Below are positions 25,902 through 62,300 of a DNA stretch of 64,000 nt, piece after piece. This DNA is from Candidatus Latescibacterota bacterium (GTDB lineage: Bacteria > Latescibacterota > UBA2968 > UBA8231). The position numbers were made by a program, and so were the translations under genes. Position 1 is the stretch's first letter; each line of letters begins with the position of its first letter. The DNA is taken from positions 3,392,001 through 3,456,000 of the forward strand of contig OZ241889.1 in the NCBI GenBank assembly GCA_965203355.1, in the 5' to 3' direction. The notes below the pieces were generated by a model. The model saw nothing but the letters and a program-made list of their open reading frames with translations. It was not told where the DNA came from and did no database searches.

Positions 25902-26066
25902 ATGCGCCTATTGACCACGGATGGGGATCGGATTTCTCGTGCGAGCACTGGTTGGAAAACGCGACCTATTCAGCACTTGGCGGTGTTCACCGAAGAATTG
26001 GGGCTGAGTGTGGCTGAACAGGAGCAAGTGTTGGGGGCGACAGCTAGGCGGCTGTTTTTTAATTGA
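25902..26066 (+). pseudogene. Amidohydrolase remnant (internally deleted, frameshifted)
   Basis: AAGGAG RBS and ATG followed soon after by WGSDFSCEHW in one frame and ...EQEQVLGATARRLFF* in another, typical of an amidohydrolase C-terminus. Confidence 0.55.
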
Positions 26067-26100
26067 CAAGTCTTTACTGAAAGCCTAAATAAGTTATAAT
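26063..26100 (+). promoter_or_regulatory. Putative sigma70 promoter for the poly-C leader
   Basis: TTGACA at 26063 with TAAATA 17 bp downstream; also TATAAT at 26095. Confidence 0.55.
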
Positions 26101-26406
26101 TCACAGCGGCGGAGATACAAAACCCCGCGGCTTGCGGCACGCTCAGGCGGATTAACAGGACATGGGCACAGCGTCAATATCACAAAGAATACCATCGCTG
26201 GGATCGGTGCCTTGTTCTACGCTTGCAATAACGCCGAGGCTTTATCGTCATAAATCGTTAAAAAACAATGATTTACCCCCCCCCCCCAACTCCGATTTCT
26301 TGGGCATTAAGCTCTAGCATTCATCAGCTTATTCTCCTCCCGCCCCTTCCTAAGCAGAAGCGGGAAGAGGTATTGCTCTGCTCTGCCGCATCGGCAAGGC
26401 ACCCGC
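26098..26406 (+). repeat. Conserved leader element with C12 tract (copy 1)
   Basis: Aligns by eye to the reverse complement of 40548-40881 (shared GGATTAACAGGACATGGGCACA, GGTGCCTTGTTCTACGCTTGC, TTTCTTGGGCATTAAG). Confidence 0.9.
26162..26317 (+). CDS. Putative leader peptide (51 aa) spanning the poly-C tract
   Basis: Hand translation MGTASISQRIPSLGSVPCSTLAITPRLYRHKSLKNNDLPPPPNSDFLGIKL*; homologous ORF at 40645-40800 differs by an in-frame 12-nt indel. RBS spacing is poor. Confidence 0.55.
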   Translation: MGTASISQRIPSLGSVPCSTLAITPRLYRHKSLKNNDLPPPPNSDFLGIKL

Positions 26407-26485
26407 GGAGACATACCAAAAACGCACCGAGACAACTTGAGACTTCAAAATGTAGCACTACCCGGCATCGAGTTAGGTTGACACA

Positions 26486-28486
26486 ATGAAGGCTCTCACC
26501 TTTGCCGAGGAACTCTGCCTGCTCTTACAGGACGACGCCTTGGGTCAACTCCATCCGCTCGAGGGGCGGACCTTGGCCTTCGGCCTTGCGACCGCGACGT
26601 TGCTGGAGCTGGCTCAGCATGATCGCATAGACACCGATCTGGCCCATCTTCAGCTTATTGACCCGACGCCGCTGGGCGATCCCATCGCTGATCCCGCCTT
26701 GGCCCTGATCGCGGGAAACTCGGAGACTAACACTCCCCAATACTGGATTCGCCGCCTAGGGTTGCAGTTGGGCCCGCAGATACTTGACGCGGCCCGAGAA
26801 CGCCTATGCGAGCGGGGCATTCTGGAACGGGACCCGGGCGACCACTTCTTCTTGGCCCCGGCTGTGGCGCACGCGAAGCGCTATCCCGGCGTGCCGGGCG
26901 ACAGCGCGGAAGAGGTTCAGGTGCGCGTCATGCGGATTCTCTTCAACGAGGATGTCCCCCAACCGTGGGAGGCCGACCTGATCGGTCTCGCCGCTGCCTG
27001 CCGCGCATTCGAGAAGGTGCTGAGCGCCCGGGAACTCGACCGGGTGGGCGCCCGGATTGAGGCGGTGAAGTCGCTGAATCTCCTGTGCCGGGCGGGCCGT
27101 ATCGCCATCGACGAGGACTTGGCGGCCAGCCGGACCGCTCCCGATCTGCAGTACAAGCCGATTCCCAAGGTGCCCGGATTGCCGTTGATCGGCAACGCCC
27201 TCGGCATGACTGGCGACCTGAACGATTTCTTTACCAAGCTTCATCGGCGACACGGGCCGATCTTTCGCATTCGGTTGCCGGGTCGTCGCGTCGTCGTCTT
27301 GGCCGGCCGGGAGGCGAATGCTTTCGTACTTCAGCATGCGCGTACGCACTTGCGCTCAAACCGGGAGTTCAGCGAGTTCTGCCGGGCCATGGAGACCGAT
27401 CGCGCCCTGATATCAATGGACGGTGCCGATCACGTCAAGCTCAGGCGCGTGGCTCAGGCCGGCTACTCAAGGGCGGTCATTGAGCGAGACATAGGTCAGG
27501 CGATAGAAATAGCCCGGCGCCATGTGACCTCTTGGCCAGTGGGACAGCGGCTGCGGGCGTTCGAGACCATACAGCGGATCGTAACCGAGCAGGTAGGCAT
27601 CTTGGCAACCGGCCTGTCGCCGCGCGACTACATCGATGATCTCAAGTACTACTTCGATACGTTGGTTTTGACCGTCCGACGCGACCGTCCTCGGTTCATG
27701 TACGCGCACCGCATGCCTCGGGTTAGGGGCCGGATACGGGCGCTCTGCCAGCAGGTGATTGAGCTGCACGACCCCGACCTGCGGAAGGGGTGTCCACGCG
27801 ACGTCATCGACGCCTTTCTGGAGTTGCACCGCCAAGATCCGCAATTCCTGCCCGAAACCGACCTCATGTCCGCCGTGGTCGGGCCGTACATTGCCGCCGT
27901 GGATACTGTGGCTGGGACGTTGGGTTTTGCCGTTCTGCGTCTGCTCTCCGAGCCCAAGTACCTAGCGATACTTAGGGCCGAGGCGGATGCGCTCTTCGCC
28001 AACGGTATGCCCGACGCCCAGGACGTTCGCGCCCTGGTGAACACCCATGCCTTCGTGACCGAGGCACTTCGCTGTTACCCGACCGTGCCGGCAATGGTTC
28101 GCACCGTTTGCAATGGCTTTGAGTTCCAAGGGCACTACGTTCCCGCCGGAACCACGATCATGGTAGCGACCACGGTGGTTCACAAAGATCCCGAGTATTA
28201 CCCGGACCCCGACCGTTTTGAGCTCGAACGGCACCTGCCGCCCCGGACGGAATCAAAGCAGAAGGGTGCGTTTGCTCCGTTCGGCATCGGGCCGCACACC
28301 TGCCTAGGCGGAGCATTCGGTCAAGTGCAGATGGCGACGGTCATCGCCACGATGCTGCGCTACGGAGCGTTTGAGTGCGACCCCGCGCCCGAGAATGGCG
28401 TGATCCGGGCTACGGGCTATCCTTCATATCGTCCGCACCGCAAGGTCGGATTCCGTCTCGTTAGCCGCAGAAACGAAGGGGGTTGA
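26486..28486 (+). CDS. GPP34 (GOLPH3-like) domain fused to cytochrome P450
   Basis: N-terminal LTFAEELCLLL...LLELA...DPTPLGDP...L.ERGIL (GPP34-like); P450 I-helix AAVDT, EALR, heme motif FGIGPHTCLG. Confidence 0.85.
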   Translation: MKALTFAEELCLLLQDDALGQLHPLEGRTLAFGLATATLLELAQHDRIDTDLAHLQLIDPTPLGDPIADPALALIAGNSETNTPQYWIRRLGLQLGPQILDAARERLCERGILERDPGDHFFLAPAVAHAKRYPGVPGDSAEEVQVRVMRILFNEDVPQPWEADLIGLAAACRAFEKVLSARELDRVGARIEAVKSLNLLCRAGRIAIDEDLAASRTAPDLQYKPIPKVPGLPLIGNALGMTGDLNDFFTKLHRRHGPIFRIRLPGRRVVVLAGREANAFVLQHARTHLRSNREFSEFCRAMETDRALISMDGADHVKLRRVAQAGYSRAVIERDIGQAIEIARRHVTSWPVGQRLRAFETIQRIVTEQVGILATGLSPRDYIDDLKYYFDTLVLTVRRDRPRFMYAHRMPRVRGRIRALCQQVIELHDPDLRKGCPRDVIDAFLELHRQDPQFLPETDLMSAVVGPYIAAVDTVAGTLGFAVLRLLSEPKYLAILRAEADALFANGMPDAQDVRALVNTHAFVTEALRCYPTVPAMVRTVCNGFEFQGHYVPAGTTIMVATTVVHKDPEYYPDPDRFELERHLPPRTESKQKGAFAPFGIGPHTCLGGAFGQVQMATVIATMLRYGAFECDPAPENGVIRATGYPSYRPHRKVGFRLVSRRNEGG

Positions 28487-28555
28487 GTCTCCCTCGGTGG
28501 CTTGACGATGCGCGGGCGGGATTGAATCGGTCCATGTGCGTGGGAGGCTAATACT

Positions 28556-29662
28556 ATGGCTCGATCAGAAGAGTTCAATCCGATGTCGATGGCGCCTTTG
28601 CGCGTTTGGTGCCGGCTTCTCGCCAAGGTGGGCGGCGTGAAGCATCCCTACCGGGCCAGGCTCAGGCAGGCACTCATCACCAGTCTGATTACGGCCGTTC
28701 CACGCTGGCTGGAATGGGGTTTATACGGCCTGCCGGTCGCGCGGACCCGAATCACCAAGCCCCCCATTATCATCCTCGGCTTTCCGCGCTCGGGCACGAC
28801 TTTCCTCCACAACCTCTTGGCACACGACCCGGACTTAGGATATTGTTCCAACTATCAGGCCGCGATCCCATTCTGCCTGATTGGCGGGGAGCGCTTAAAG
28901 AGGAAGTTGGCGTCCCGGGTGCCCCAAAACCGGGGCATCGACAACATGGCGGCCGATATGGATCTGCCTCAGGAAGAGGTCTTCGCGCACGCGATGCATT
29001 CGCACCGTTCAGTCACACACGCATTCACCTTTCCCTCGCTGACGGAAGAACTGGGCCGGAAGTACGTGCTCATGGAGGCCAGCGACGCCGAGGTGCGTGC
29101 GTGGCGCAGGGGCTACATGAAGGTTGTGAAAAAGGCGACCTACATGCACGGTGGCAGGCGCGTCGTACAGAAGGCCACCCCAAATCTGGGGCGACTCCCC
29201 CAGATCATGGAGATGTTTCCGGGAGCCTACTACATACACATCGTTCGCAATCCCTACGATCTGTATCCGTCGTACATGCACATGCTGTCCACGCTGACTA
29301 AGTCGTACACTATGGAAGAATACGATCCGGCCGAGTTGGAGGCCGGGGCCGTCCGCATGTACCAGCGAATCATGCAGAACTACCTGAGGGACAGGTCATC
29401 TATTCCGCCCGACCGGTTCATCGAGATGCGTTTCGAGGATTTGCGTCGGGATCCAATGGGGGAGATTGGTCGGATTTACCGGAGCTTCGGCTTCGACTGG
29501 GAGAGAGCCGAAGCTCCGATCGCGGACTACGTCGCCACGCTGTCGTCGTACAAGCAGAACCAGTACGATCCCGATCCCCGCGTCCGCGAACAGGTCGATG
29601 CACACTGGAGGTTCGCGGTCGATGAGTGGAACTATGGCTCGCCGCCACCCGAGACCCCGTAG
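28556..29662 (+). CDS. PAPS-dependent sulfotransferase (Stf3-like)
   Basis: 5'-PSB motif GFPRSGTTFLHNLL; 3'-PB motif IHIVRNPYDLYPS. Confidence 0.9.
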   Translation: MARSEEFNPMSMAPLRVWCRLLAKVGGVKHPYRARLRQALITSLITAVPRWLEWGLYGLPVARTRITKPPIIILGFPRSGTTFLHNLLAHDPDLGYCSNYQAAIPFCLIGGERLKRKLASRVPQNRGIDNMAADMDLPQEEVFAHAMHSHRSVTHAFTFPSLTEELGRKYVLMEASDAEVRAWRRGYMKVVKKATYMHGGRRVVQKATPNLGRLPQIMEMFPGAYYIHIVRNPYDLYPSYMHMLSTLTKSYTMEEYDPAELEAGAVRMYQRIMQNYLRDRSSIPPDRFIEMRFEDLRRDPMGEIGRIYRSFGFDWERAEAPIADYVATLSSYKQNQYDPDPRVREQVDAHWRFAVDEWNYGSPPPETP

Positions 29663-29721
29663 CATACCATGTTGTTCCTCCCGAAAGGGCAGGCCGGGGA
29701 AGCACTCGAGAGCGGCCTGAT

Positions 29722-30573
29722 ATGAGCGTGGTGGTAGTCATTGGCTCGGCGACGATTGACCGCGTGGTGCAAGAAGGCATAAGCGCGTGCAAACGCGGGG
29801 GGGTGGTTGCGTATGCTGGGTTGACCTTTGCCGAGTTGGGCGTGGAGACGCGGATATTGACCAACATCGCCGCGGCTGACCGGGCGATGCTGGCGGCGTT
29901 GCAGCAGCGGGGTATTGCCGTCTATGTGGGCGAGAGCGCGGCGACGACCTGTTTTGTCAACTACGTGGATGGCGACGCACGGCATCAGGCGTTGCTCGCT
30001 TGTGCCGCGCCGATTGCCGCAGCGCAACTCGGGCCGGTGCTCGCCGGCGCGACGCACGTGCATTTGGGGCCGCTCCACCCGCGCGATCTGGCCGAGGATA
30101 TGCTGACGGCGATAGACGGCGTGGTGAGCTTGGACATCCAGGGCTATGTGCGGCGGATTGAGGGGACGCAGGTGTGCCAAGGGGTTGCTGACGATCTGTA
30201 TGCCGCTCTGCAATGCGCGGACTATGTCAAAACTTCCAATGATGAATTAGAACTCGTGCTCGCCGATTGCGGCCTGACGCTAGATCGGTTGATGCGCGAG
30301 TACTCGGTGGCAGAGTGGATCGTCACCGAAGGTTCGCACGGCGGCTGGGTGGCAAATCGGCCGGGACAACGGACGAAGTTTGCGTCGGCTCCGGTGGCGA
30401 TGGTGGCCGATCCAACCGGGGCTGGAGACGTGTTTTTCGCCGCGTATTTGGCGCATCGGTTGCATCGAGGCGTGGGGATTGATACGGCCGCTCAACGTGC
30501 GGCGGCGTTGGCTGCGCGCCAAGTGGAGGGTGGGTTTATCGACGAGGTGACGTTGCGTTTGGAAGGGGAGTGA
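29722..30573 (+). CDS. PfkB family carbohydrate kinase
   Basis: GGVVAYA, VSLDIQG, DPTGAGDVF. Confidence 0.85.
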   Translation: MSVVVVIGSATIDRVVQEGISACKRGGVVAYAGLTFAELGVETRILTNIAAADRAMLAALQQRGIAVYVGESAATTCFVNYVDGDARHQALLACAAPIAAAQLGPVLAGATHVHLGPLHPRDLAEDMLTAIDGVVSLDIQGYVRRIEGTQVCQGVADDLYAALQCADYVKTSNDELELVLADCGLTLDRLMREYSVAEWIVTEGSHGGWVANRPGQRTKFASAPVAMVADPTGAGDVFFAAYLAHRLHRGVGIDTAAQRAAALAARQVEGGFIDEVTLRLEGE

Positions 30574-35383: not shown

Positions 35384-35490
35384 GTGGTACGTTTTGAAAT
35401 TTAGCTTTACTCCCGTTGCACGGGTCGCTCTCGCTCGGCCTGAGCCGCGGCGACCCAAGCCCGATCTCAACCGTACCGCGACAATTGGAG
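35384..35490. repeat. Structured ~100-bp direct repeat, copy 1
   Basis: Shares TTAGCTTTACTCCCGTTG and CCCAAGCCCGA.CTCAACCGTACC.CGACAATTGGAG with 40931-41019. Confidence 0.85.
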
Positions 35491-35550
35491 ATTTCAAAAC
35501 GCATCACGACCGAATGATTTGGCGGTGCAGGGTAGTTGCCGACTTTGACC

Positions 35551-35868
35551 ATAGAAATGGGACCCGGCAGCGGTGGGGGGGCAAACCAGTGCGCTGTCTA
35601 ATTTCTAACATGGACATCCCAGAACATCGGGGTCCCATTTCCGTGCCTTGCGGTGTCGCGTGTGCTACTTGAGCAGCAGCATCTTCTGGACGGCGAGGAA
35701 GTCGCCGCCCGCTCGCAAGTGGTCCTGTAGGCTGTCGATCTGACGTTCATAAGAAAATGGGACCCCAGAACATCGGGGTCCCATTTCCGTGTCTTGCGGT
35801 GTCGTGGATGTTACTTGAGCAGCAGCATCTTCTGGACGGCGAGGAAGTCGCCGCCCGCTTGCAAGCGG
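35551..35868 (-). repeat. Tandem duplication of gene 3' end plus terminator (146-bp unit)
   Basis: The last ~18 codons and stop (35811) recur at 35665, each followed by a GGGACCCC...GGGGTCCC-type hairpin (second one degenerate). Confidence 0.9.
35755..35786 (-). terminator. Intrinsic terminator of the surface-protein gene
   Basis: AAATGGGACCCC-N8-GGGGTCCCATTT palindrome followed by a T-rich run on the minus strand. Confidence 0.75.
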
Positions 35869-38800
35869 TAGAAGTACATCCCCGACGACACGCTCTGGCC
35901 GCTATCGTTGGTCGCGTCCCACTCCACCGCGTAGCGACCGGCACTCTGATGCTCGGCGACCAGCGTCCGAATCGGCTGACCCAACACGTTATACACGGTC
36001 AGCCCCACGTCCGCCGCCTGCGGCAACGCATACTGAATCGTCGTCTGCGGGTTGAACGGGTTGGGATAGTTGGCTGCCAGCGAGAACACAGCCGGGCGCG
36101 TCTGCACCGAAATCGGCGCGGGCAATGCCAGCCGGTTGAAGCCCAACGCCCGGTCATACGTCTGGCTGTCGGTGATTTCGAGGGTCGTGTGCTCGATCTC
36201 GGTCGTCGGCCGGAAGACTAAGCGCAGCATCAGCTCGCCATCGGCAACGACATCGCCGTGCGCGGCTACCGTCAACACGCCCGCTTGGTCGGCCAGTACC
36301 TGCGGCGTAGCGAATGCGCTATCGCCCAGCGGCTGATCGGTCTGCGCCTCGACGAAAGTTAGCTGGTCGGCGTCATACGCTATCTGCAAGCCGTAGCCTT
36401 TGACCGCTACGAAGTCGGTCAACCGCACATTAACGACGAAATCCTCTCCCACGCTCGGCAGGGCTGTCGGCGCGTCCAGATACAGCCGCGCATCCGCATT
36501 CAGCCCGGCCTGCAACGCCACCGGCTTGCCAGCGCCGCTGTTGAACCGATCGAACAACGAACCGAGGTCGACAAAATCCAGCATCGCGTTGATTGTAATC
36601 GTGAACATCAGCGAGACGCTTTCGTCGCCCGCTATGGCCGTGTAGGTGACCTCAACGGCCCCATCGGTCGCCGCTTCCGGCGTCCCGGAAATCGTCCGGG
36701 TCGCCGCGTCAAACGACAGCCCGGCTGGCAGACCCGACACGCTATACGTGATGGCTCCCTCGCCGCCCAGTGCCATCGGCAGTTCCAACGAGTGAATCGC
36801 CGTGCCCGCCGTATAGGCATGTGCGGCAATCGAAGCACCCTCGACGAAAGACAAGGGAATCATCATCTCCTTATCGTCCATCATGCTGCGGTCCGTGTCC
36901 GTCAGCACCAGCGTCGCCGAACCCGCCGTCAAACCCGGTATCATCGCGTTGATCACAATCGTCTCGTCACCTTCGGCCATGCCGTCGGCTGTCGGATCAA
37001 CCAACAGGCGGGTCGAACCCATAATCGAACCGGCGGCAATGGTAATCGTTGGATCGAACAGGGCCGAGTAGTCCGTGTCGCGGGTGGCACTACTCGAAAT
37101 CTCATCAATCGAAACGGTCGCCGTGGCGTCCTCGGCCAACGGCTTGCCGTCCAGCGCGGCCATGACCATTACTTCCGTCAACTCGGCGGACTCGCTGAGC
37201 GCGCTCGGCATCACCGACACGACCAAAGACGTGCTGGCGGTCTCGTCGTCGGAAATCCGCAAGTCCACCTGCCCCCAGCCGCCCGAAGACACCGCCCGGA
37301 TCCCCAAGTGCTTATGACCGTCCGCCGAAGCGTTGTCAATCGGCGATAGGAAAAGCGTCGTCGAACCGACCTTTTCCCCGGCCGCAATGGTGATCGTCCC
37401 CGCCAACGTCGCGGTGTAATCCACGTCGCGGGTGGCCATCGCGCCGCTGGCGGGCGGCACAATCGTGAAGCGGACCGTCTCAGCCGCCGGAGCCGCCTCT
37501 GACAAGGTCGCTGTAATTCGGATTTCAGCCGTGTCGCCGTTTTCGCGCACGGCCGATTGCGAAGCCATCACACTGGCGACGCCCACGGTGACCGGCGGGG
37601 CCTCGCTGACCGTGATGGTGAAGGTCTTTGCGCCGCTATCGCCGTCGCCATCGATCACCGTATAGAAGACTTCCGACATACCCGCCATCGTCGGCGTTCC
37701 CGAAAGCGTCCGCGTCGCCGCGTCAAACGACAGACCCATCGGCAGGTCCGACGAGACCCTGTACCGCAGCGTTCCTTGGCCGCCCGTCGCCGCGGGCAAC
37801 ACCGCGCTGAACGCTTGACCTACCGTCGCTTCAAAGGCTAACGCCCCAGCGCCGAAACTCGGTCGTCCCGTGTCCGCGGGCGTATCCGAAGAACCAGAAT
37901 CATCCGTCATCGCCGCGTCTTTCAGCGTAATCTTCGCGGTGCTGACGGTGATCTTGTCGGCGTCTTGGTTCTTGAGATTGTCCGTGAGTTGCTTGATCGT
38001 GATCGTCTCGTCGTTGTCGTCTTTGCCGTCGTTGACCGGCTTGATCGTGATCGTCGTCGAGCCGGTGATCGCGCCGTGCGGAATCGTCAGCGAGCTAAGT
38101 GCTGCCGTGTAATCAACGTCCCGCGTCGCCGACTTGTCCGGCGTCCGATCCACGACCAAGGTGATCGTCGCCGCCGCGTCGAGCACCTTGCCGTCTAACG
38201 TGCCCGTAACCGTAACCGTCGTCGCCCCGGCGTCCTCTTTGATTTCACTCGGATTGACCGACAGCGTAATTTTTTCGCTCAGCGTCTCATCATCCGTGAT
38301 CGTGAACGTCTCCTCCTTCATCTGATCTTTTTCGTCGCCGACCTTCGCTTTTACCGTGAACGTCCACGGATCATTCTTACCGCTGTTGTTCGTCGGGGTG
38401 ACGCGCAGCATGGCCGTGCCTTTGGTGTCGCCGGCCGGGATCGTCAAGCCCTCAATGACCTCCACCTCGTAATGCACATCGCGCGTCCCGGAAGAACCCG
38501 GCGTAATCTGAAAGTCCACCGTCTTAGAGCCGGTTAAGGCCGCCGCCAATTCAACGTTCATCGCAACGTCCGTCGCCCCGCTTTCCTCGCGGATCGTCGC
38601 CGGACTCAGCGTAAATTTTTTGATCTGCGCCACCGCAACGTCCTCAACCGTGATGATGCCCGGATTGACCTTAATACGAACGACAAAAGAGTCCACATAC
38701 TTTAGCGTTACGGCCGCATCTCCGTAATTCCTCTGGAAAGTATCGCCGAAGTCGTTATCGCCGTTAAAGTCGATTTGATAACCATGTGAGACTTTTCGTT

Positions 38801-40310
38801 TGGATGGTACCTCGGTGATGCCAGGACCGCCGGTGGTCCAATCAGCGCACGTTTGTGGGTTCGAATCCGTTGCATCGAATAAGCAGAGACCTACCTCCGA
38901 TACTACCTTACCCTGGGGCACCACATACTCATCTAAAAGATCGCCATCCGCGAAAAGGTCGATCCCCAAGTCTGCTTCTACCAAGACGGTCCCCGCAGGT
39001 ACGACATCGGAATCTTTATAACTCGTATTTTGGTAATCCCACCCAAAAAACCCATCACCCTCTGGGTCTGTTCCAATATCCCCATCGCCGTTTAAGTCTA
39101 TACCGATACTTCGGAGGGTCTTTGTGGAGCCTTTAATAAATTGGTCGATATAAGTATTGCTATACTTCATAGCCTCTACTAGAGTCGTGCCTTCTGACAG
39201 GGTAAAACCATCGTCATCAAAGCTACCATCAAGATTAAGGTCGATCCGGACCCGCCGCCCCTCACTGTTCTGCCGTTTTAACTTCAGAATCAGCGTATCA
39301 CTACTGGCCTTCAGCACGATCTGGCCCGCCTTATCTTTCGGATCGAGAGTGAACGTAGTCGTCCCTTCAATCTTACGCCGCGGAACGGTCAGCTTCCCCA
39401 GACCACTAAGCGAGTAATGCACATCGCGCGTCAACGTATCGCTGGCAGCCCCCTTGCCCTCAACAATAGCCAATTGGGTTTCAAGGGTTTCAAGGGCTTG
39501 GGTCTTAAACGCACGGCCATCCAACGTCGCCGTCAATTCAATCGGAGTCGCATCCGCCTGCTTGCTGAGCTTGGACGGCTTAAAAGAAAGGTCGATGTTT
39601 TCGGACAACATCTCATCGTCAATCAGCTCCACATACATTCTCGAATACGTTTTTGTGTATACCTTGAAGCGTATAACAGGATGCTCACCGCCAATATATT
39701 CGTCAGACCGTTTGAAACCAGTTTTATATTTACCACTTTCAAACCGAAACATGATAGGGATATTACCTCCACCGACTAAATCCTCGTTGTTGGCTGGTCG
39801 AGCAAAGCCGTCGTCTTCGAGATTACGCTGAGTTGCAGTTAAATCAATAAAGATAGGCAAAGCCGGACTCATAGCCTGCCTCTCATAGTGATTCCATACT
39901 TTTCTTGTGACATCGGCCTCTGTGGCTGTGGGTGAGGTTGTGAAAGGTCCGACTCGCTTATTGTCTATCGGGGTTATGGTCAGCGTTCCAGTCGCCTTTT
40001 TCTCGCCCTTCTTAATCACGAAATTGGGGGTGGATAAGGTGAAGAAGCCGCCGAGATACTTTGAATAGGGACGCTCATCATCAAAAAGCATCGCAACGCG
40101 AATATCTTCGGTCGCCGCCTTCCCATCCTTTGTTTCTAAGGTCACCGTAATATCTTGTGCCCCCCTGTCCTCGCGGATCAAAACCCGGTCAAAGGAGACG
40201 AATAGGCTATCTTGGGCCGTGGCTTCCCCGGCCAACAGCAAGCTGGCCGCTAGCAACAAAGGCACAAACGCCAACCGCGGCATCGGCACGGACAACTTCG
40301 CATGTATCAT
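35811..40310 (-). CDS. Large secreted surface/adhesin-like protein (Calx-beta-like and He_PIG Ig repeats, cohesin-like domain, FlgD/T9SS type-A-like CTD)
   Basis: GGAGG RBS, signal peptide, ATRDVDYTA repeats, LPAGLSFDAATRTISGTP, NYPNPFNPQTTIQY...GMYFYRL...KMLLLK. Confidence 0.85.
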   Translation of the reverse strand: MIHAKLSVPMPRLAFVPLLLAASLLLAGEATAQDSLFVSFDRVLIREDRGAQDITVTLETKDGKAATEDIRVAMLFDDERPYSKYLGGFFTLSTPNFVIKKGEKKATGTLTITPIDNKRVGPFTTSPTATEADVTRKVWNHYERQAMSPALPIFIDLTATQRNLEDDGFARPANNEDLVGGGNIPIMFRFESGKYKTGFKRSDEYIGGEHPVIRFKVYTKTYSRMYVELIDDEMLSENIDLSFKPSKLSKQADATPIELTATLDGRAFKTQALETLETQLAIVEGKGAASDTLTRDVHYSLSGLGKLTVPRRKIEGTTTFTLDPKDKAGQIVLKASSDTLILKLKRQNSEGRRVRIDLNLDGSFDDDGFTLSEGTTLVEAMKYSNTYIDQFIKGSTKTLRSIGIDLNGDGDIGTDPEGDGFFGWDYQNTSYKDSDVVPAGTVLVEADLGIDLFADGDLLDEYVVPQGKVVSEVGLCLFDATDSNPQTCADWTTGGPGITEVPSKRKVSHGYQIDFNGDNDFGDTFQRNYGDAAVTLKYVDSFVVRIKVNPGIITVEDVAVAQIKKFTLSPATIREESGATDVAMNVELAAALTGSKTVDFQITPGSSGTRDVHYEVEVIEGLTIPAGDTKGTAMLRVTPTNNSGKNDPWTFTVKAKVGDEKDQMKEETFTITDDETLSEKITLSVNPSEIKEDAGATTVTVTGTLDGKVLDAAATITLVVDRTPDKSATRDVDYTAALSSLTIPHGAITGSTTITIKPVNDGKDDNDETITIKQLTDNLKNQDADKITVSTAKITLKDAAMTDDSGSSDTPADTGRPSFGAGALAFEATVGQAFSAVLPAATGGQGTLRYRVSSDLPMGLSFDAATRTLSGTPTMAGMSEVFYTVIDGDGDSGAKTFTITVSEAPPVTVGVASVMASQSAVRENGDTAEIRITATLSEAAPAAETVRFTIVPPASGAMATRDVDYTATLAGTITIAAGEKVGSTTLFLSPIDNASADGHKHLGIRAVSSGGWGQVDLRISDDETASTSLVVSVMPSALSESAELTEVMVMAALDGKPLAEDATATVSIDEISSSATRDTDYSALFDPTITIAAGSIMGSTRLLVDPTADGMAEGDETIVINAMIPGLTAGSATLVLTDTDRSMMDDKEMMIPLSFVEGASIAAHAYTAGTAIHSLELPMALGGEGAITYSVSGLPAGLSFDAATRTISGTPEAATDGAVEVTYTAIAGDESVSLMFTITINAMLDFVDLGSLFDRFNSGAGKPVALQAGLNADARLYLDAPTALPSVGEDFVVNVRLTDFVAVKGYGLQIAYDADQLTFVEAQTDQPLGDSAFATPQVLADQAGVLTVAAHGDVVADGELMLRLVFRPTTEIEHTTLEITDSQTYDRALGFNRLALPAPISVQTRPAVFSLAANYPNPFNPQTTIQYALPQAADVGLTVYNVLGQPIRTLVAEHQSAGRYAVEWDATNDSGQSVSSGMYFYRLQAGGDFLAVQKMLLLK

Positions 40311-40522
40311 GACTCAACCTCCTGAAGGAAAGCATCGCCCAAGGGCGAAAGGGAAGGGATAGAAGAAAATGGACTTAGCCGTAGAACTAAGCCGCTGCGT
40401 TCTTGCGTTTTTGCTACCGTTGAGCAAGACGAATCCCGCGCGGCGAGCGCGAGGCTACGACGTCGTCGGCCGATAACCGCGAGGCTACCGAGAATGGGGT
40501 TCGTTTGTGATGTGGATGGGTG

Positions 40523-40545
40523 GCCACTGACCACTGACCACTGGT
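40523..40545. repeat. Heptamer tandem repeat (CCACTGA)n
   Basis: CCACTGACCACTGACCACTGG; a similar run occurs at 45236-45268. Confidence 0.7.
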
Positions 40546-40547
40546 CA

Positions 40548-40881
40548 GCGGGGCTTACCGACGCGGCCGGGCAGAATAAGGCCGTTTCCCGCTTCCGTAG
40601 AGGAAGGGGAGCGAGGCAAATAGGTTGGTGAGTGAAGCTAGGGCTTAATGCCCAAGAAAATTCGGGGGGGGGGGTAAGTGTTTGTTTTTTAACGACTTAT
40701 GACGATCAAGTCTCGACGTTATCGCAAGCGTAGAACAAGGCACCGCCATCAGCACCGCTCCCGGCGATGGCGTTCTTTGTGCTATTGACGTTGTGCCCAT
40801 GTCCTGTTAATCCGACTAAGAATGCCGCCAGCGGCCGAGGTTCTATAACCCAAACGCAACGCGCCGCTGTGCGCTGTGAAT
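40548..40881 (-). repeat. Conserved leader element with C11 tract (G11 on +), copy 2
   Basis: Reverse complement aligns to 26098-26406. Confidence 0.9.
40645..40800 (-). CDS. Putative leader peptide (51 aa) spanning the poly-C tract
   Basis: Hand translation MGTTSIAQRTPSPGAVLMAVPCSTLAITSRLDRHKSLKNKHLPPPPNFLGH*; homolog of 26162-26317. Confidence 0.55.
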   Translation of the reverse strand: MGTTSIAQRTPSPGAVLMAVPCSTLAITSRLDRHKSLKNKHLPPPPNFLGH

Positions 40882-40894
40882 TTCACACCTAACG

Positions 40895-40924
40895 ATTATA
40901 CAACCTCAGTTAAACGTTTGTCAA
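40895..40924 (-). promoter_or_regulatory. Consensus sigma70 promoter
   Basis: Minus strand reads TTGACA-N18-TATAAT directly upstream of the leader element. Confidence 0.75.
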
Positions 40925-40930
40925 ATGTAG

Positions 40931-41019
40931 GTCGTGGTTTTTGAAACTTAGCTTTACTCCCGTTGGATCGCCCCGGCTCCACCCCAAGCCCGACCTCAAC
41001 CGTACCACGACAATTGGAG
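40931..41019. repeat. Structured ~90-bp direct repeat, copy 2
   Basis: Homolog of 35384-35490; closed by a GTCGTGGT/ACCACGAC stem; just downstream of the rpe stop. Confidence 0.85.
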
Positions 41020-41028
41020 GTTGCCCGG

Positions 41029-45235: not shown

Positions 45236-45268
45236 TGACTGACCACTGACCACTGGCTACTGACCACC
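45236..45268. repeat. Heptamer tandem repeat (CTGACCA)n
   Basis: GACTGACCACTGACCACTGGCTACTGACCAC in intergenic DNA. Confidence 0.65.
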
Positions 45269-45459
45269 TGCTTTTACGAGACGTTTCTAAAGCGGCCAGA
45301 AAGTGTTATGCTATTTCATGGCCGATGTTGGGATTTTCACCCAAGCGAAATCGGCCCAATTACCCGATACCCCTTTTCATTATAGTGCTTGTAGTGTATC
45401 GCGAAAAATTTGACGCAGCCATCCTCGGAGCCTTGTCGCTCCGCCTGACCTAAATACGT

Positions 45460-58769: not shown

Positions 58770-58904
58770 GGTCGTCCGGTGGGCTGTTTAGTTCTTGACA
58801 TTGGCAATAGAAATGGGACCCGGCAGCGGTGGGGACGGCGGGTCGTCCGGTGGGCTGTTTAGTTCCTGACATTGACAATAGAAATCGACATTAACAATAG
58901 AAAT
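58770..58904. repeat. Local ~45-bp direct repeats
   Basis: GGTCGTCCGGTGGGCTGTTTAGTTC.TGACATT..CAATAGAAAT at 58770 and 58841, plus a partial third copy. Confidence 0.85.
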
Positions 58905-59312
58905 GAGACCCCAGAACATCAGGGTCCGATTTCCGTAACTCGCGGTGTCGTGTGTGCTACTTGAGCAGCAGCATCTTCTGGATGTCGACAAACGCTTCAC
59001 CTGCCTGCAAGCGGTCCGTAGGTTGTCGATCGGACGTTCATAAAGAAAATGGGACCTCAAACCGAAAATTGAGGTCCCATTTTCGTAACTTGCGGTGTCG
59101 CGTGTGCTACTTGAGCAGCATCTTCTGGACGGCGAGGCAATCGCCGCCCGCCTGCAAGCGGGCCGTAGCCTGTCGATCTGACGTTCATAAGAAAATGGGA
59201 CCCCAGAAAACTGAGGTCCCATTTCCGTAACTCGCCAACATCGTGTCGCGTGTGCTACTTGAGCAGCAGCATCTTCTTGATGTCGAGGAAATCACCGCCC
59301 GCCTGCAAGCGG
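58900..59312 (-). repeat. Tandem array (148 and 150-bp units) of variant gene 3' ends plus terminators
   Basis: Stop-codon-bearing copies at 59255 (gene), 59107 and 58957, each followed by a GGGACC...GGTCCC-type hairpin. Confidence 0.92.
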
Positions 59313-62300
59313 TAGAAGTACATTCCCGACGACACGCTGTGGCCACTATCGTTGGTCGCGTCCCACTCCACCGCGTAACGACCCGCCGCCTGATGCTCGG
59401 CGACCAGCGTCCGAATCGGCTGACCCAACACGTTATATACGGTCAGCCCCACGTCCGCCGCTTGCGGCAACGCATACTGAATCGTCGTCTGCGGGTTGAA
59501 CGGGTTGGGATAGTTGGCTGCCAGCGAGAACACGGCCGGGCGCGTCTGCACCGAAACCGGCGCGGGCAATGCCAGCCGGTTAAAGCCCAACGCCCGGTCA
59601 TACGTCTGGCTGTCGGTGATTTCGAGGGTCGTGTGCGCGATCTCGGTCGTCGGCCGGAAGACTAAGCGCAGCATCAGCTCGCCATCGGCAACGACATCGC
59701 CGTGCGTGGCTACCGTCAACACGCCCGCTTGGTCGGCCAACACCTGCGGCGTAGCGAATGCGCTCCCGCCCAGCGGCTGATCGGTCTGCGCCTCGACGAA
59801 GGTCAACCGGTCGGCGTCATACGCTATCTGCAAGCCGTAGCCTTTGACCGCCACGAAGTCGGCTAACCGCACATTAACGATGAACTCCTCTCCTACGCTC
59901 GGCAGGGCTGTCGGCGCGTCCAGATACAGCCGCGCCTCCGTATTCAGCCCGGTCCGCAGCGGCACCGGCTTGCCCGCCACGGCCACGCTGCGACCGAAAT
60001 GGTCGGCCAACACGAAGAAGTCGTCGAAGTCAATCGTCCCATTCGGGGCCAAGTCAAACGCTGGATCAAACCCCGCGTCGCCTGCCGTCAAGCCGAAGCG
60101 GTCCGCCAACACGAAGAAGTCGTCGAACCCAATGCGAGCATCCGCGCCGAACAGCCCCAACAGAGCCTGCCCTTGGCTATCGGCCACCCGATTGCGCACG
60201 GCTAACGCGGTATGCTCGACCGAACCGGTCTCGTTGTCTAAGTCGAAGGGCCGCACCTGATAGGTGTAATGCACGCCATGCTGCGCCGTCTCATCAACGA
60301 AGGACGCTACCCCGGACGCCACCTCGGCGACCACGGAAAACGCTTCGTCTCCCACGGCGCGGCGGTAGATGCGGTAGCCATGTACGCCCACGACCGGCTC
60401 GACCGGCGCCGGGCCCAAGGCACCAGCTACGACTCCTTGCAGCACCTGATCCGATGGCGACAGTGTCCACGTCAGCGCGATGCGACCGCCTTGATCGTCC
60501 GGCGCATCCAACACCTGCAACGCTGGCACGGCCAACGGCGCGATGTCGTCGGTCGCCCGCACGGCCTCGGCCGTCCAAGTAATCGACGAACTCAGCACGT
60601 TACCGACGACATTTAGCTTCGGTGCCACGCCGCGAGCGTAGGCTAATGCTTCCGGCAGCAACGATGCCAACACCGGACCCTCACCGCCCTGCGCGGCAGC
60701 GCGGCTGGCTTGCAGCGTCGCCGCCATCTGCGCGTAGGGCTGCGTCAGGTCGTCCGCCTCGACGAACACGGCTTTGGCCATCGTGTGCGTGGTGCGGCCA
60801 CCTTTTTCGGCGGCAATGCCCCAGCGCGTCGAGACGTTGTCCAGCGTCGCCACGATGGCGCGGCCCATCGCTACGCCGGGCACGGCATCTACTCGCGCCC
60901 ACGGCACCATCTCATTTTCCAGCACCGGCAACGCACGGAAAATGCGATAGCCGTCCAGCGACTTATGATCGGCCGATAGCTCCCAAGACAGCATCACGAA
61001 ACCGCCTTGGTCGCCTTGGCCGTCCGCACCTTTGTAGTCCTCGGCGACCAGGTTTGTCGGCGCCGACAGCGGCGGCTCCACCACCGCCATGCTCAACGGC
61101 AGCGACTGACTCGCGCCGCTGGCATCTACGACCGTGTAGGTCGCAACCGTCTCGCCCATCACCGTCGGCGTCCCGGAAATCGTCCGGGTGGCCGCGTCAA
61201 ACGACAGTCCCGTCGGCAGCCCCGACACGCTATACGTCAGCGGCGGGGTGCCCCCGGAGACCGCCGGCAACGTCAGGTTTGCCGGCACGTTAATGGTGAA
61301 TTGAATCATGTTGTCGGTGTGCGAATCCGCCGGATTGGCCTTGCCAGCACCGCTGTTGAGACCGAACAACGAACTCAGGTCGCCAAAGTCCAGCATCGCG
61401 TTGATGGTAATCGCGAACGTCAGCGAGACGCTTTCGGCACCAGCCATCGCCGTGTAGGTGACTTCAACGGCCCCATCGGTCGCCGCTTCCGGTGTCCCGG
61501 AAATCGTCCGGGTCGCCGCGTCAAATGACAGTCCCGCTGGCAGATCCGACACGCTATACGTGATGGTGCCTTCGCCGCCTAACGCGACCGGCAGCACCAA
61601 CGGCGTAATCGCCGTGCCCGCCGTGTAGGTGTGTGCGGCAATCGAAGTGCCCTCGACGAAAGCCAAGGCGATCATCATATCCTTATCGCCGTCCATATTG
61701 TCGTCCATCATGCCGCGGTCCGTGTCGGTCAGTACCAGCGTCGCCGAACCCGCTGTCAAGCCGGGCAGCATCGCGTTGAGCACAACCGTCTCGTCGCCTT
61801 CGGCCATGCCGTCGGCGACCGGATCAACCAACAGGCGCGTCGAACCCATGATCGAACCGGCCGCAATGGTGATGGTCGGATCGAACAGGGCCGAGTAGTC
61901 CGTGTCGCGTATGGCACTACTCGAAACCTCATCAATCGAGACGATGGCGGTGGCGTCCTCGGCCAGCGGCTTGCCGTCCAGCGCGGCCATGACCATCACT
62001 TCCGTCAATTCCGCCGACTCGGGGATCGCGCTCGGCATCACCGACAGCACCAAAGACGTGCTGGCGGTTTCGTCGTCGGAAATGCGGATGTCCACCTGAT
62101 CCCAACCGCCCGAAGACACCGCCCGAACCCCCAAGTGCTTATGACCGTCCGCCGAAGCGTTGTCGATGGGCGATAGGAAAAGCGTCGTCGAGCCGACCTT
62201 TTCCCCGGCCGCAATGGTGGCGGTCCCCGCTAACGTCGCGGTGTAATCCACGTCGCGGGTGGCCATCGCGCCGCTGGCCGGCGGCACAATCGTGAAGCGG

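What the first reader, a model, noticed from the sequence alone, without database searches (positions are those of the whole stretch)
26063..26489. Poly-C leader-peptide switch (copy 1): a one-base slip would couple a uORF to the GPP34-P450 start codon
Seen: promoter-like boxes, then a 51-aa uORF (ATG 26162) crossing a C12 tract (26276-26287) and stopping at TAG 26317. With C11 or C14 it would instead read ...PPPTPISWALSSSIHQLILLPPLPKQKREEVLLCSAAS... without a stop to TGA 26487-26489, overlapping the P450 ATG at 26486 (ATGA); C11 gives a 108-aa product. The same architecture occurs at 40307-40924 before an unrelated gene. Established: homopolymer tracts slip during replication, ATGA overlaps give translational coupling, untranslated C-rich RNA can load Rho, and poly-Pro slows ribosomes. 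Inference: a portable phase-variation cassette that switches a downstream operon without altering its coding sequence, assembled here in the uncoupled state. Caveats: poor RBS spacing at the uORF, and a non-conserved ATG (26268) lies in the long frame.
Basis: partly seen in the sequence, partly recalled or inferred. Interest (0 to 1): 0.92.

Follow-up and report, generated by a model that had tools for sequence, protein, structure and literature searches.

The report
Portable poly-C leader switch cassette
Both copies belong to a multi-copy leader cassette of sponge-associated Latescibacterota in which a highly length-variable run of C's sets the reading frame of a short upstream ORF, and so probably switches surface and host-interaction genes on and off.

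Summary
Copy 1 (26073-26489, +) and copy 2 (40924-40307, -) share a promoter-like site, a 51-codon leader ORF, a C12 or C11 tract, and one frame open to a TGA overlapping the next gene's ATG.

It is not a two-copy curiosity. A 24-nt motif (A-rich flank, TTA, C9 or more) gives 77 matches in 20 of 167 genomes of one phylum, against 0 for the reversed control and 0 of 401 genomes of another phylum. I analysed 71 loci:
- Tracts run from 9 to 24 C, in all three phases.
- Only 17 of 135 copy pairs with at least 90% identical flanks share a tract length.
- In 43 of 59 leader-type loci the one long frame stops within 30 nt of the next ORF's start; 21 of these are exact ATGA/GTGA overlaps.
- In 12 loci the tract lies in the gene's own 5' end.

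Downstream genes are mostly LRR, fn3 and cadherin surface proteins, glycan enzymes, and the sponge-specific GPP34-P450. A close relative's GPP34-P450 ortholog lacks the cassette, so it is portable.

The best reading is a slipped-strand phase switch acting through the leader frame, a new variant of a known kind. Tract heterogeneity within a population, and the coupling step itself, remain untested.

The parts
26073..26100 (+). Copy 1 promoter-like site, TTTACT-16-TATAAT
   Evidence: 10 of 12 matches. A TTGACA box stands at the equivalent place in most of the 13 G133 copies aligned.
26146..26164 (+). Conserved start context of the leader ORF (GGCGGATTAACAGGAC-ATG)
   Evidence: The ATG is invariant in W1, W2 and the 13 G133 copies. 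Related GGAGGACGAAC.GGA..ATG contexts occur in the other genomes printed.
26162..26317 (+). Leader ORF as assembled (51 aa, MGT...HKSLKNNDL-PPPP-NSDFLGIKL*)
26249..26275 (+). Conserved 27-nt flank CATAAATCGTTAAAAAACAATGATTTA, read as HKSLKNNDL. It carries stop codons in both other frames.
   Evidence: Motif frame open with both other frames closed in 56 of 71 loci, against 11.9 expected from shuffles.
26268..26270 (+). Second ATG, 8 nt before the tract. At C12 it is in the long frame.
26276..26287 (+). C12 tract, read as Pro codons in every frame
   Evidence: The family range is 9-24 C.
26308..26317 (+). Two closing stops for the two short frames: TAA 26308-26310 and TAG 26315-26317, within GGGCATTAAGCTCTAGC
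   Evidence: Equivalent paired stops recur across genera. Exactly two frames are closed within 38 nt in 34 of 59 leader-type loci, against 20.1 expected.
26289..26489 (+). Long ('SWALS') frame: 66 codons, then TGA 26487-26489 overlapping ATG 26486
26333..26370 (+). Hairpin inside the long frame (CCUC-CCGCCCCUUC...GAAGCGGG-GAGG), with conserved stem and variable loop
   Evidence: the 133-nt post-tract segment folds with z -2.19. One search gives the pair table for columns 305-326.
26486..28486 (+). Downstream gene: GPP34 + cytochrome P450 fusion (666 aa)
   Evidence: This long form is reported as exclusive to sponge symbionts (PMC11706023, abstract passage).
40895..40924 (-). Copy 2 promoter-like site, TTGACA-18-TATAAT
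   Evidence: 12 of 12 matches.
40645..40800 (-). Copy 2 leader ORF as assembled (51 aa, MGT...HKSLKNKHL-PPPP-NFLGH*)
40675..40701 (-). Copy 2 conserved flank CATAAGTCGTTAAAAAACAAACACTTA
40664..40674 (-). C11 tract (G11 on the + strand)
40638..40647 (-). Closing stops of the two short frames: TAA 40647-40645 and TAG 40640-38
40307..40663 (-). Copy 2 long frame: 118 codons, then TGA overlapping ATG 40310
35811..40310 (-). Downstream gene: 1499-aa secreted protein with He_PIG, FlgD_ig and a weak Por_Secre_tail match. It has its own AGGAGG 7 nt before the ATG.

Best explanation
The two copies are members of a portable 5' regulatory cassette used by a clade of Latescibacterota. The window most likely comes from a sponge-associated member of that clade.

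Layout of the cassette, 5' to 3':
1. A sigma-70-like promoter.
2. A leader ORF with a conserved start context.
3. About 38 poorly conserved codons.
4. A conserved A-rich flank (..CATAARTCGTTAAAAAACAAnnnnTTA, read as [HR]KSLKNNxL) that closes both other reading frames.
5. A C tract of 9-24 bases.
6. Two stop codons that end two of the three frames within 4-9 codons.
7. One frame kept open up to the start codon of the next gene, where it stops (ATGA).

Proposed mechanism: slipped-strand changes in tract length during replication decide which frame leader ribosomes leave the tract in.
- In two phases they terminate just behind the tract, leaving 200-380 nt of structured, C-rich leader untranslated.
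- In the third phase they translate up to the gene's start codon. This raises the gene's expression by termination-reinitiation, and/or by keeping the leader free of hairpins, Rho or a terminator.
- A second ATG 8 nt before the tract (ATG 26268 in copy 1) can serve a second phase.

Shown here: the anatomy, its recurrence before unrelated genes, fast evolution of tract length between copies and species, and the frame architecture.
Inferred: heritable switching within a population, and the step that links leader translation to gene expression.
For: Family and restriction:
- A DNA search with copy 1 matched 35 of 167 genomes of the phylum of G001. G001 is the genome of L003, whose record title reads Candidatus Latescibacterota.
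- G133 holds 13 full-length copies at 71-78% identity.
- The motif AAAAACA-N5-TTA-C9 gives 77 matches in 20 of 167 genomes and 0 for the reversed control. It gives 0 of 401 genomes of the phylum of G168 and 0 of 5 single genomes from other groups.
- In G133, all 14 runs of C/G of 11 or more are cassette copies.

Hypervariable tract (71 loci):
- Lengths run from 9 to 24, mode 14. Phases (length mod 3) are 24/20/27.
- 17 of 135 pairs with at least 90% flank identity share a length, and 3 of 9 pairs at 95% or more.
- The near-identical (97%) loci L089 and L090, from two genomes, carry C15 (leader in the long frame) and C12-T-C (out of frame).

Frame architecture (59 leader-type loci):
- The longest frame stops within 30 nt of the start of an ORF of at least 120 codons in 43 of 59.
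- 31 of these have a start codon 1 nt before the stop. 21 are ATGA/GTGA overlaps; 10 have TTGA with an ATG 9 nt further upstream.
- These 43 loci lie before several different gene families: a secreted protein family shared with copy 2, HlyD, fn3, LDL-B/dockerin, dynamin, LRR lipoproteins and GPP34-P450.
- Both other frames close within 12 codons in 37 of 59.
- Upstream, the motif frame is open and both others closed in 56 of 71, against 11.9 expected.

Tract inside the coding region:
- In 12 of 71 loci the tract lies in the 5' end of the main ORF itself. Examples are L165, a GT2 glycosyltransferase with MNKNNNL-P(n), and L092, L106, L107, L134 and L144, all in frame. This is the classical contingency-gene arrangement.

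Gene content fits: LRR, LDL-B, fn3, cadherin, Calx-beta and He_PIG surface proteins; GT2, GDSL, arylsulfotransferase and NTP-transferase.

Portability: the G133 ortholog of GPP34-P450 (88% aa identity) lacks the cassette, while both flanks are conserved.

The leader peptide is not a protein family:
- No hit for the 108-aa reading among proteins of 59-189 aa.
- 1 hit at E 6.7e-5 and none at 1e-10 or better for the 118-aa copy-2 frame in 1.84 billion representatives.
Against: - No within-population heterogeneity was seen. Contigs of runs X1 and X3 cover the copy-1 tract with 0 differences, so they read C12 (table 8). The X2 contig begins inside the tract. The X4 contig has one unlocated 1-nt gap in 26259-26551.
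- The in-frame fraction, 21 of 71 by an ATG-only rule, is close to the one third that a tract with no coding role would also give.
- Single loci are not significant. The chance that any frame stays open in shuffles is 0.04-0.49, and many loci are paralogs, so the counts are not independent.
- 16 of 59 leader-type loci show no ORF start near the long-frame stop.
- Some downstream genes have their own Shine-Dalgarno-like sequence, for example AGGAGG before ATG 40310. Folding gives no sign that the start region is sequestered: z -0.52 and +1.11. Dependence on coupling is therefore not evident.
- MutS and MutL are present in 5 of 5 genomes tested, so instability cannot be put down to loss of mismatch repair.
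- The strict nucleotide conservation of the flank is not required by a plain slippage switch and remains only partly explained. Leu is TTA in all 71 loci and Asn is AAC in nearly all.
Confidence: 0.6

Rival explanations
1. The switch is not heritable. RNA polymerase slippage or ribosomal frameshifting on the long C run produces a mixture of frames from every allele. Alternatively, the run acts as a poly-proline stall site, with the leader sensing EF-P or proline supply. The tract would then tune expression rather than toggle it.
For: - The tract encodes 3-8 prolines in every frame.
- Runs of 12-24 are longer than usually needed for slippage; that threshold is recalled, not tested here.
- Tract phase is evenly spread, 24/20/27, as expected if no single phase is required.
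- The residues before the tract are conserved ([HR]KSLKNNxL), as in arrest peptides.
- A heptamer A-AAA-AAC stands in the leader frame.
Against: - Poly-Pro stalling alone does not explain why exactly one post-tract frame is kept open to the next start codon (43 of 59) while the other two are closed at once (37 of 59).
- The -1 frame after the heptamer meets a stop within 2 codons in copy 1 (CAA TGA, read from the sequence).
- No RNA data were available.
Confidence: 0.17
2. The conserved flank plus C run is an RNA- or DNA-level site, and the reading frames are incidental. It could be the target of a G-rich small RNA (as RepG targets a variable G-repeat in the H. pylori tlpB leader), a protein-binding site, or a Rho-loading site.
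For: - Conservation is at the nucleotide level. The codon before the tract is TTA in all 71 loci, and AAAAAC is nearly invariant.
- In L101 the flank is kept although the only ATG-started ORF reads it in another frame.
- The post-tract 130 nt fold better than shuffles, z -2.19 and -3.21.
- A precedent exists (PMC8295292; search listing and abstract start only).
Against: - No Rfam family matches, at gathering score or up to E 10.
- The whole-leader fold is not special, z -0.84.
- RNAalifold over 13 copies gives an unfavourable covariation term, +2.28, and 4 of 46 pairs with a double change.
- This reading does not explain the stop/start overlaps or the loci where the tract lies in frame inside the gene.
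Confidence: 0.13
3. The cassette is a decaying repeat spread by gene duplication, with no regulatory role. On this view the open frames reflect shared ancestry and base composition.
For: - Many loci are paralogs: G133 has 14 and G145 has 22.
- Some copies are degenerate: L123, L124, L141, and a second collapsed motif in L148.
- The shuffle chance that a frame stays open is up to 0.49.
Against: - The cassette stands before unrelated genes in 17 genomes, and the 27-nt flank is kept across them.
- Stop placement exceeds shuffle expectation: 56 against 11.9, and 34 against 20.1.
- Stop/start overlaps recur in separate gene families.
Confidence: 0.07
4. The tract lengths are sequencing or assembly errors in homopolymers. 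The true sequence would be one continuous leader gene in every copy.
For: Homopolymers are error-prone in long-read data (recalled). Copy 1 and copy 2 are each one base away from the long frame.
Against: - Lengths span 9-24 within single assemblies.
- Independent contigs of two samples reproduce C12 at copy 1.
- 50 of 71 loci are out of frame, far more than +/-1 errors would give.
Confidence: 0.03

Closest known systems
Streptococcus gallolyticus pil1 leader-peptide phase variation (Danne et al. 2014, PMC3894217; abstract read)
   Same: A simple repeat inside an upstream leader ORF changes the leader's length. Long-leader translation raises expression of a surface-structure operon without touching its coding sequence.
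   Different: - The repeat there is GCAGA, not a homopolymer.
- The link there is ribosome-induced destabilisation of an intrinsic terminator. Here the long frame ends exactly on the next start codon (ATGA). A terminator behind the leader is visible only in the G001 copy, by eye; the scan did not find it.
- That system is one locus. Here there are dozens of loci per genome with a conserved portable flank.
Classical homopolymer contingency genes of Neisseria, Haemophilus, Helicobacter and Campylobacter (general account read in passages of PMC3711429; the species examples are recalled)
   Same: A G/C run in the 5' coding region of surface-protein and glycosyltransferase genes, with a mix of in-frame and out-of-frame alleles. 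The 12 loci here whose tract lies inside the gene match this arrangement.
   Different: - In those species the flanks of the tracts are gene-specific. Here a 27-nt flank is shared by unrelated genes, and every long C run in G133 belongs to the cassette.
- Most loci here act through a separate leader ORF.
- The host is an uncultured, mismatch-repair-proficient symbiont phylum.
[quoted passage not shown]
   Same: A variable homopolymer in an mRNA leader sets the expression of the downstream gene.
   Different: The effect there is through base-pairing with a small RNA and is graded. No partner RNA was sought or found here, and the frame architecture points to translation.
Promoter-spacer homopolymer switches (Bordetella fim, Neisseria opc/porA; recalled, no call)
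   Same: Poly-C or poly-G tracts upstream of surface-protein genes, with conserved flanks among paralogs.
   Different: In those systems the tract lies between promoter elements and works within a narrow length range. Here the promoter-like hexamers lie about 176 nt upstream, and lengths span 15 nt.
Haemophilus influenzae lic1 with several in-phase ATGs (recalled, no call)
   Same: Two start codons in different frames before the repeat let two of the three repeat phases give a product. Compare ATG 26162 and ATG 26268, and the 14 of 71 loci with a second ATG.
   Different: That repeat is a tetranucleotide inside the gene itself, not a leader with stop/start overlap.

Membership tests
Simple-sequence-repeat contingency (phase-variable) locus | A repeat tract whose length changes much faster than the surrounding sequence | tested here: met
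   17 of 135 copy pairs with at least 90% identical flanks share a tract length. Range 9-24. This compares copies and species, not cells.
Simple-sequence-repeat contingency (phase-variable) locus | Reversible length heterogeneity within one population | tested here: inconclusive
   Only Logan contigs could be laid, not raw reads. X1 and X3 read C12 at copy 1. X4 has one unlocated 1-nt gap. One contig each in X1 and X2 has GG inserted behind 40663, but these may come from a paralogous copy.
Simple-sequence-repeat contingency (phase-variable) locus | The tract is placed so that length changes alter expression, by frame or by promoter spacing | tested here: met
   The tract lies in a leader ORF or in the gene's 5' coding region. 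The three phases give one long and two short readings.
Simple-sequence-repeat contingency (phase-variable) locus | An ON/OFF phenotype that follows tract length | not testable with these tools
   The organisms are uncultured and no RNA run was listed.
Leader-peptide phase variation with attenuation (pil1 type) | The repeat lies inside an upstream leader ORF, and repeat number sets the leader's length | tested here: met
   51 aa at C12 against 108 aa with one base fewer. The same holds in copy 2 and in G133, G145 and G140.
Leader-peptide phase variation with attenuation (pil1 type) | A premature intrinsic terminator between leader and gene that long-leader translation disrupts | tested here: inconclusive
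   - Copy 1: no terminator-like site behind the tract.
- Copy 2: 3 terminator-like sites within the long frame; the scan found 5 in the region against a shuffle mean of 1.2.
- G001 copy: a GC hairpin followed by T7, seen by eye but not called by the scan.
Translationally coupled gene pair | The upstream stop overlaps or abuts the downstream start | tested here: met
   ATGA at 26486-26489 and at 40310-40307. 31 of 59 leader-type loci have a start codon 1 nt before the stop.
Translationally coupled gene pair | Downstream translation depends on upstream translation | not testable with these tools
   Folding shows no sequestered start region, z -0.52 and +1.11. The copy-2 gene has its own AGGAGG.
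Curated structured RNA family (riboswitch, leader or sRNA in Rfam) | A match to a covariance model, or covariation supporting a conserved fold | tested here: not met
   0 matches at gathering score over the whole window and 0 up to E 10 locally. The covariation term is +2.28.
Promoter-spacer homopolymer switch | The tract lies between the -35 and -10 elements, and length varies within a narrow window | tested here: not met
   The promoter-like hexamers end 176 nt before the tract in copy 1. Tract lengths span 9-24.

The most novel reading that the evidence does not exclude
The cassette is a dedicated, mobile 'phase-variation module'. Its parts would be a conserved start region, a frame-insulating flank, a hypermutable C run, paired stops for two phases, and a ribosome track to the next start codon. 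The lineage would copy this module in front of whatever gene it wants to make stochastic, including host-interaction factors such as GPP34-P450 and eukaryote-like LRR, fn3 and cadherin proteins. The strictly conserved flank may also serve a lineage-specific factor, either a nascent-peptide stall or a protein that sets the tract's mutation rate. If so, sponge symbionts would run a combinatorial surface-variation system comparable to those of pathogens.
Probability: 0.3. Interest if true: 0.9.

Novelty: new variant of a known kind. Interest (0 to 1): 0.78.

Why it matters
Phase variation by simple repeats is known almost entirely from cultured pathogens and commensals.

Here the same logic appears in an uncultured, sponge-associated phylum, and in an unusual form:
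- One conserved, portable leader cassette is used at up to 26 places per genome (G145).
- Most copies act through a separate upstream ORF whose long reading ends on the next start codon.

The genes behind it are those thought to mediate symbiont-host contact. They include eukaryote-like LRR, fn3 and cadherin proteins, glycan-modifying enzymes, and the GPP34-P450 fusion that PMC11706023 reports as exclusive to sponge symbionts and proposes to modulate phagocytosis (passages).

If the switch is real, symbiont populations inside one sponge are mosaics of surface types. That bears on how symbionts avoid being eaten, and on how MAG consensus sequences of these genes should be read: 50 of the 71 loci are out of frame, so gene callers may record them as broken.

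It is directly testable with existing long-read metagenomes. My searches found no paper on it. The library lacks most subscription journals, and supplements were closed.

Tried and rejected
- Whole-genome search of the window's own assembly: none is held.
- Exact 21-mer of the leader start: 0 stretches in genome contigs, metagenome contigs and viral contigs.
- Ribulose-phosphate epimerase as a taxonomic probe: best identity only 53%, to L003. It served only to obtain a genome handle.
- Rfam: nothing. Whole-leader fold not special. RNAalifold gives no covariation. The structured-RNA reading was dropped as the main explanation.
- Protein searches with the long-frame products: none among 59-189 aa (other lengths not searched), and one weak hit at E 6.7e-5. 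A real protein family was rejected.
- Sequencing runs: no RNA holder listed. Runs X1-X4 are held as contigs only, so could not measure tract heterogeneity. Summed word depth over the cassette bins is several times the flanking depth (X1: 173.1 and 552.5 against 31.4). This fits many similar copies in those runs, but the tool warns that depth is not copy number.
- Second metagenome scan with the 24-nt motif: 65 stretches. By eye, only L179 carries the extended flank. The rest are AT-rich chance matches or runs at contig ends. My scoring line was misaligned and I did not use it.
- Promoter-spacer reading: rejected.
- -1 frameshifting on A-AAA-AAC: considered and rejected for copy 1, because the -1 frame stops at once (sequence).
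- Loss of mismatch repair as the cause of instability: rejected, since MutS_I and MutL_C are present in 5 of 5 genomes.
- My first ON/OFF count (22 of 71) assumed one 'motif frame'. In the four G141 loci, and in L147 and L149 of G140, the leader ORF enters the tract in another frame. I replaced the count with an ATG-entering rule, which gives 21 of 71. TTG and GTG starts, such as the one in L081, are not counted by that rule.
- Of the 77 motif matches, I analysed 69 fetched loci from 17 genomes, plus the 2 window copies. One of the 69 (L114) has a variant flank that the exact pattern does not match. At least 9 matches were not fetched: G072 (2), G087 (1), G123 (1), G125 (1) and G145 (4). L124, a partial copy without a tract, was dropped.
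- The split between leader-type and in-gene loci is a threshold rule: the longest post-tract frame is at least 250 codons for the in-gene class.
Supplements of the papers were not opened and may hold locus lists that bear on novelty.

Full report
**1. The observation**

- A promoter-like TTTACT-16-TATAAT lies at 26073-26100.
- An ATG at 26162 opens a 51-aa ORF that crosses C12 (26276-26287) and stops at TAG 26315-26317.
- Read with one base of the tract skipped, the ORF gives 108 aa. It ends at TGA 26487-26489, inside ATGA with the start of a 666-aa GPP34 + cytochrome P450 ORF.
- ATG 26268, 8 nt before the tract, is in that long frame as assembled. It gives a 73-aa ORF to the same TGA.

Copy 2 lies on the minus strand.
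- TTGACA-18-TATAAT at 40924-40895.
- A 51-aa leader at 40800-40645.
- C11, seen as G11 on the + strand at 40664-40674.
- A 118-codon open frame at 40663-40307, ending in ATGA with the start of a 1499-aa secreted protein.

The two copies are 84-89% identical over the leader. They carry the only homopolymer runs of 9 or more in the window. No third copy lies in the window.

**2. The two window copies alone prove little**

In mononucleotide shuffles of the stretch between tract and gene start, some frame stays open with probability 0.165 (copy 1) and 0.075 (copy 2). The leader peptide differs at many positions between the copies. The whole leader does not fold better than shuffles, z -0.84. Rfam has no match.

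**3. Relatives**

No genome is held for the window, and an exact 21-mer found nothing in three collections. A housekeeping protein led to L003, whose record title reads Candidatus Latescibacterota, and so to handle G001.
- G001 carries one element. It has a promoter-like site, a TTG-started ORF through the same A-rich flank and a C24 tract, and then a GC hairpin with a T7 run. I see that hairpin in the sequence, but the scan does not call it.
- A DNA search of the 167 genomes of that phylum matched 35.
- G133 holds 13 full-length copies at 71-78% identity, plus two partial ones.
- G133 also encodes a GPP34-P450 ortholog at 88% amino-acid identity, so it is a fairly close relative of the window's organism.

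**4. A defined motif**

The 24-position pattern AAAAACA-N5-TTA-C9 gives 77 matches in 20 of 167 genomes and none for the reversed control. G145 has 26, G133 has 13 and G140 has 10.
- It gives 0 of 401 genomes of the phylum of G168 (record title Longimicrobiales) and 0 of 5 single genomes from other groups.
- In a very large metagenome collection it gives 65 stretches. By eye only one (L179) has the extended flank.
- In G133, all 14 C/G runs of 11 or more are cassette copies. Tract and flank are therefore one unit.

**5. Census of 71 loci**

The set is the 2 window copies plus 69 loci fetched from 17 genomes.

*Tract length.* Lengths are 9-24, mode 14, with phases 24/20/27. Among 135 pairs of copies whose 240 nt of flanks are at least 90% identical, 17 share a length. 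Among 9 pairs at 95% or more, 3 do. L089 and L090, 97% identical loci from two genomes, carry C15 and C12-T-C.

*Two architectures.*
- In 59 loci, including both window copies, the tract sits in a separate leader ORF.
- In 12 loci, the longest post-tract frame is the main ORF itself (250 codons or more).
- Examples of the second class are L165, where MNKNNNL-P(n) continues into a GT2 glycosyltransferase, and L092, L106, L107, L134 and L144, which are in frame from an ATG 14-40 codons before the tract.

*Leader-type loci.*
- The longest frame stops within 30 nt of the start of an ORF of at least 120 codons in 43 of 59.
- 31 of these have a start codon 1 nt before the stop: 21 ATGA/GTGA, and 10 TTGA with an ATG 9 nt further upstream.
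- 16 of 59 show no such start.
- Both other frames close within 12 codons in 37 of 59. The conserved sequence behind the tract (GGGCATTAAGCnCTAGC and its relatives) carries those two stops in different frames.
- Exactly two frames are closed within 38 nt in 34 of 59, against 20.1 expected.

*Upstream flank.* The flank carries stops in both non-leader frames. The leader frame is open and both others closed in 56 of 71, against 11.9 expected.

These counts include paralogs and are not independent. The overlaps do recur before different gene families.

**6. The flank**

Read in the leader frame it is [HR]-K-[SL]-[LIF]-K-N-[NK]-x-L followed by prolines. Some changes are synonymous: TTA/TTG, TCG/TCT, AAT/AAC. 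But the last Leu is TTA in all 71 loci and AAAAAC is nearly invariant. In L101 the only ATG-started ORF reads the flank in another frame. The constraint is therefore at least partly on the nucleotides. Frame insulation explains part of it. The rest is open.

**7. Starts**

The leader ATG is invariant in the window copies and the 13 G133 copies. It sits in a context conserved across genomes, GGAGGA or GGCGGA, about 12 nt, then A/TGGA and ATG.

A second ATG in another frame that reads into the tract occurs in 14 of 71 loci. In W1, L094, L101 and L149 it is the one that reaches the long frame. Counting any ATG-started ORF that enters the tract, 21 of 71 loci are in the long frame, and copy 1 is one of them.

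**8. What lies downstream**

- LRR and LDL-receptor-B lipoproteins.
- fn3, cadherin, Calx-beta, dockerin and He_PIG proteins.
- GT2, a GDSL/SGNH hydrolase, an arylsulfotransferase and a nucleotidyl transferase.
- An HlyD-type protein, a dynamin-like GTPase and glucose/sorbosone dehydrogenases.
- In the window, a secreted He_PIG protein and GPP34-P450.

PMC11706023 reports the GPP34 + P450 form as exclusive to sponge symbionts, found in 92.59% of 27 Latescibacterota symbiont genomes (abstract and table passages). The runs that hold parts of the window include sponge metagenomes at small shares, which I did not lay.

**9. Portability**

Upstream of the G133 ortholog of GPP34-P450, the end of the neighbouring gene (89% over 141 nt) and the last 35 nt before the ATG (86%) are conserved with the window. 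The 323 nt between them show no similarity to the 405 nt that hold the cassette in the window. The cassette was therefore gained or lost at this locus since the two lineages split.

**10. Mechanism**

*Shown.* The anatomy, its recurrence, and fast tract evolution.

*Inferred.*
- Tract length changes by slipped-strand mispairing within populations.
- Ribosomes that reach the ATGA raise expression of the gene.

How the second step works is open.
- Stop/start overlap suits termination-reinitiation.
- The 130 nt behind the tract fold better than shuffles, z -2.19 and -3.21, with a hairpin whose stem is conserved and whose loop varies. They are C-rich, which would suit Rho or an attenuator when untranslated.
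- Copy 2 has three terminator-like sites inside the long frame. Copy 1 has none.
- Against a strict need for coupling, the start regions are not predicted to be sequestered, and copy 2's gene has its own AGGAGG.
- Poly-proline stalling and RNA-polymerase slippage on such long runs are likely side effects or co-mechanisms, and could not be tested.

**11. What is missing**

- Raw reads were not available. The laid contigs read C12 at copy 1 in X1 and X3, show one unlocated 1-nt gap in X4, and show a GG insertion behind 40663 in one contig each of X1 and X2 that may belong to another copy.
- No RNA holder was listed.
- The in-frame share of 21 of 71 is what a meaningless tract would also give. 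The argument for function rests on the placement of stops and starts, not on that share.
- MutS and MutL are present in 5 of 5 genomes tested.

**12. Comparison and novelty**

The closest described system is pil1 of Streptococcus gallolyticus. There GCAGA repeats set the length of a leader peptide, and long-leader translation destabilises a terminator (abstract). Homopolymer contingency genes and the RepG/tlpB G-repeat are further relatives.

New here:
- The homopolymer-in-leader design with stop/start overlap.
- The paired stops on both sides of the tract.
- The conserved portable flank shared by unrelated genes.
- The host: an uncultured, sponge-associated phylum.

Searches for phase variation together with Latescibacteria, with sponge symbionts, or with leader peptides and translational coupling found no description of it. 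I file it as a new variant of a known kind.

Noticed in passing
window 35454-35493 and 40983-41022: A 40-nt direct repeat (93% identical) brackets the whole unit of cassette copy 2 plus the 1499-aa gene (family D13). One X1 contig joins 35428 to 40980 with 21 other letters between, but with only 21 letters on its shorter side (table 5). A form or paralogous place without the 5.5-kb unit may therefore exist.
   Followed up: partly
window 35811-40310 and 59255-64000 (both minus strand): These are two paralogous giant secreted proteins, 77-93% identical at the DNA level in blocks (D2-D9). The second runs off the window end, so its upstream region was not seen. Summed contig depth over 35476-38000 is about 20-38 times the flanking depth in X1, which hints at many related genes in those runs.
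   Followed up: partly
window 35533-35869 and 58770-59313: Arrays of units about 146 nt long lie just downstream of both giant genes. They contain a GGGACCCC...GGGGTCCC inverted repeat (D1, D8, D12, D16, I5). Their function is unknown.
   Followed up: no
window 40521-40558 and 45240-45277: A short TGACCACTG-type repeat lies inside the variable part of copy 2's long frame and recurs 4.7 kb away (D17).
   Followed up: no
L081 1390-1690 (G001): A single-copy variant of the cassette: promoter-like site, TTG-started 70-aa ORF through C24, then a GC hairpin plus T7 about 18 nt after the stop of the in-frame reading. This looks more like the pil1 attenuator layout, or a small RNA gene. Sequence downstream of it was not examined.
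   Followed up: partly
L148 (G140), behind its C21 tract: A second, collapsed copy of the flank motif (GTAAGTC-TTTAAAAAACAGTAAGTTA-TCCCATC) follows the first. This suggests tandem duplication and tract decay.
   Followed up: no
L179 4280-4460 (metagenome contig): The only metagenome hit with the extended flank. AGGAGG, then an ATG leader, the flank and C9 run in frame into a signal-peptide protein that also has its own internal ATG 30 nt after the tract. In-frame fusion and an independent start may therefore coexist.
   Followed up: partly
window 26486-30573: GPP34-P450 is followed by a sulfotransferase and a PfkB-family kinase on the same strand. This may be an operon under the cassette.
   Followed up: no
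L091, L157-L159 (G141); L147, L149 (G140): In these copies the long upstream leader ORF enters the tract in a different frame from the usual one, so the frame relation between leader and flank is not fixed across the family.
   Followed up: partly
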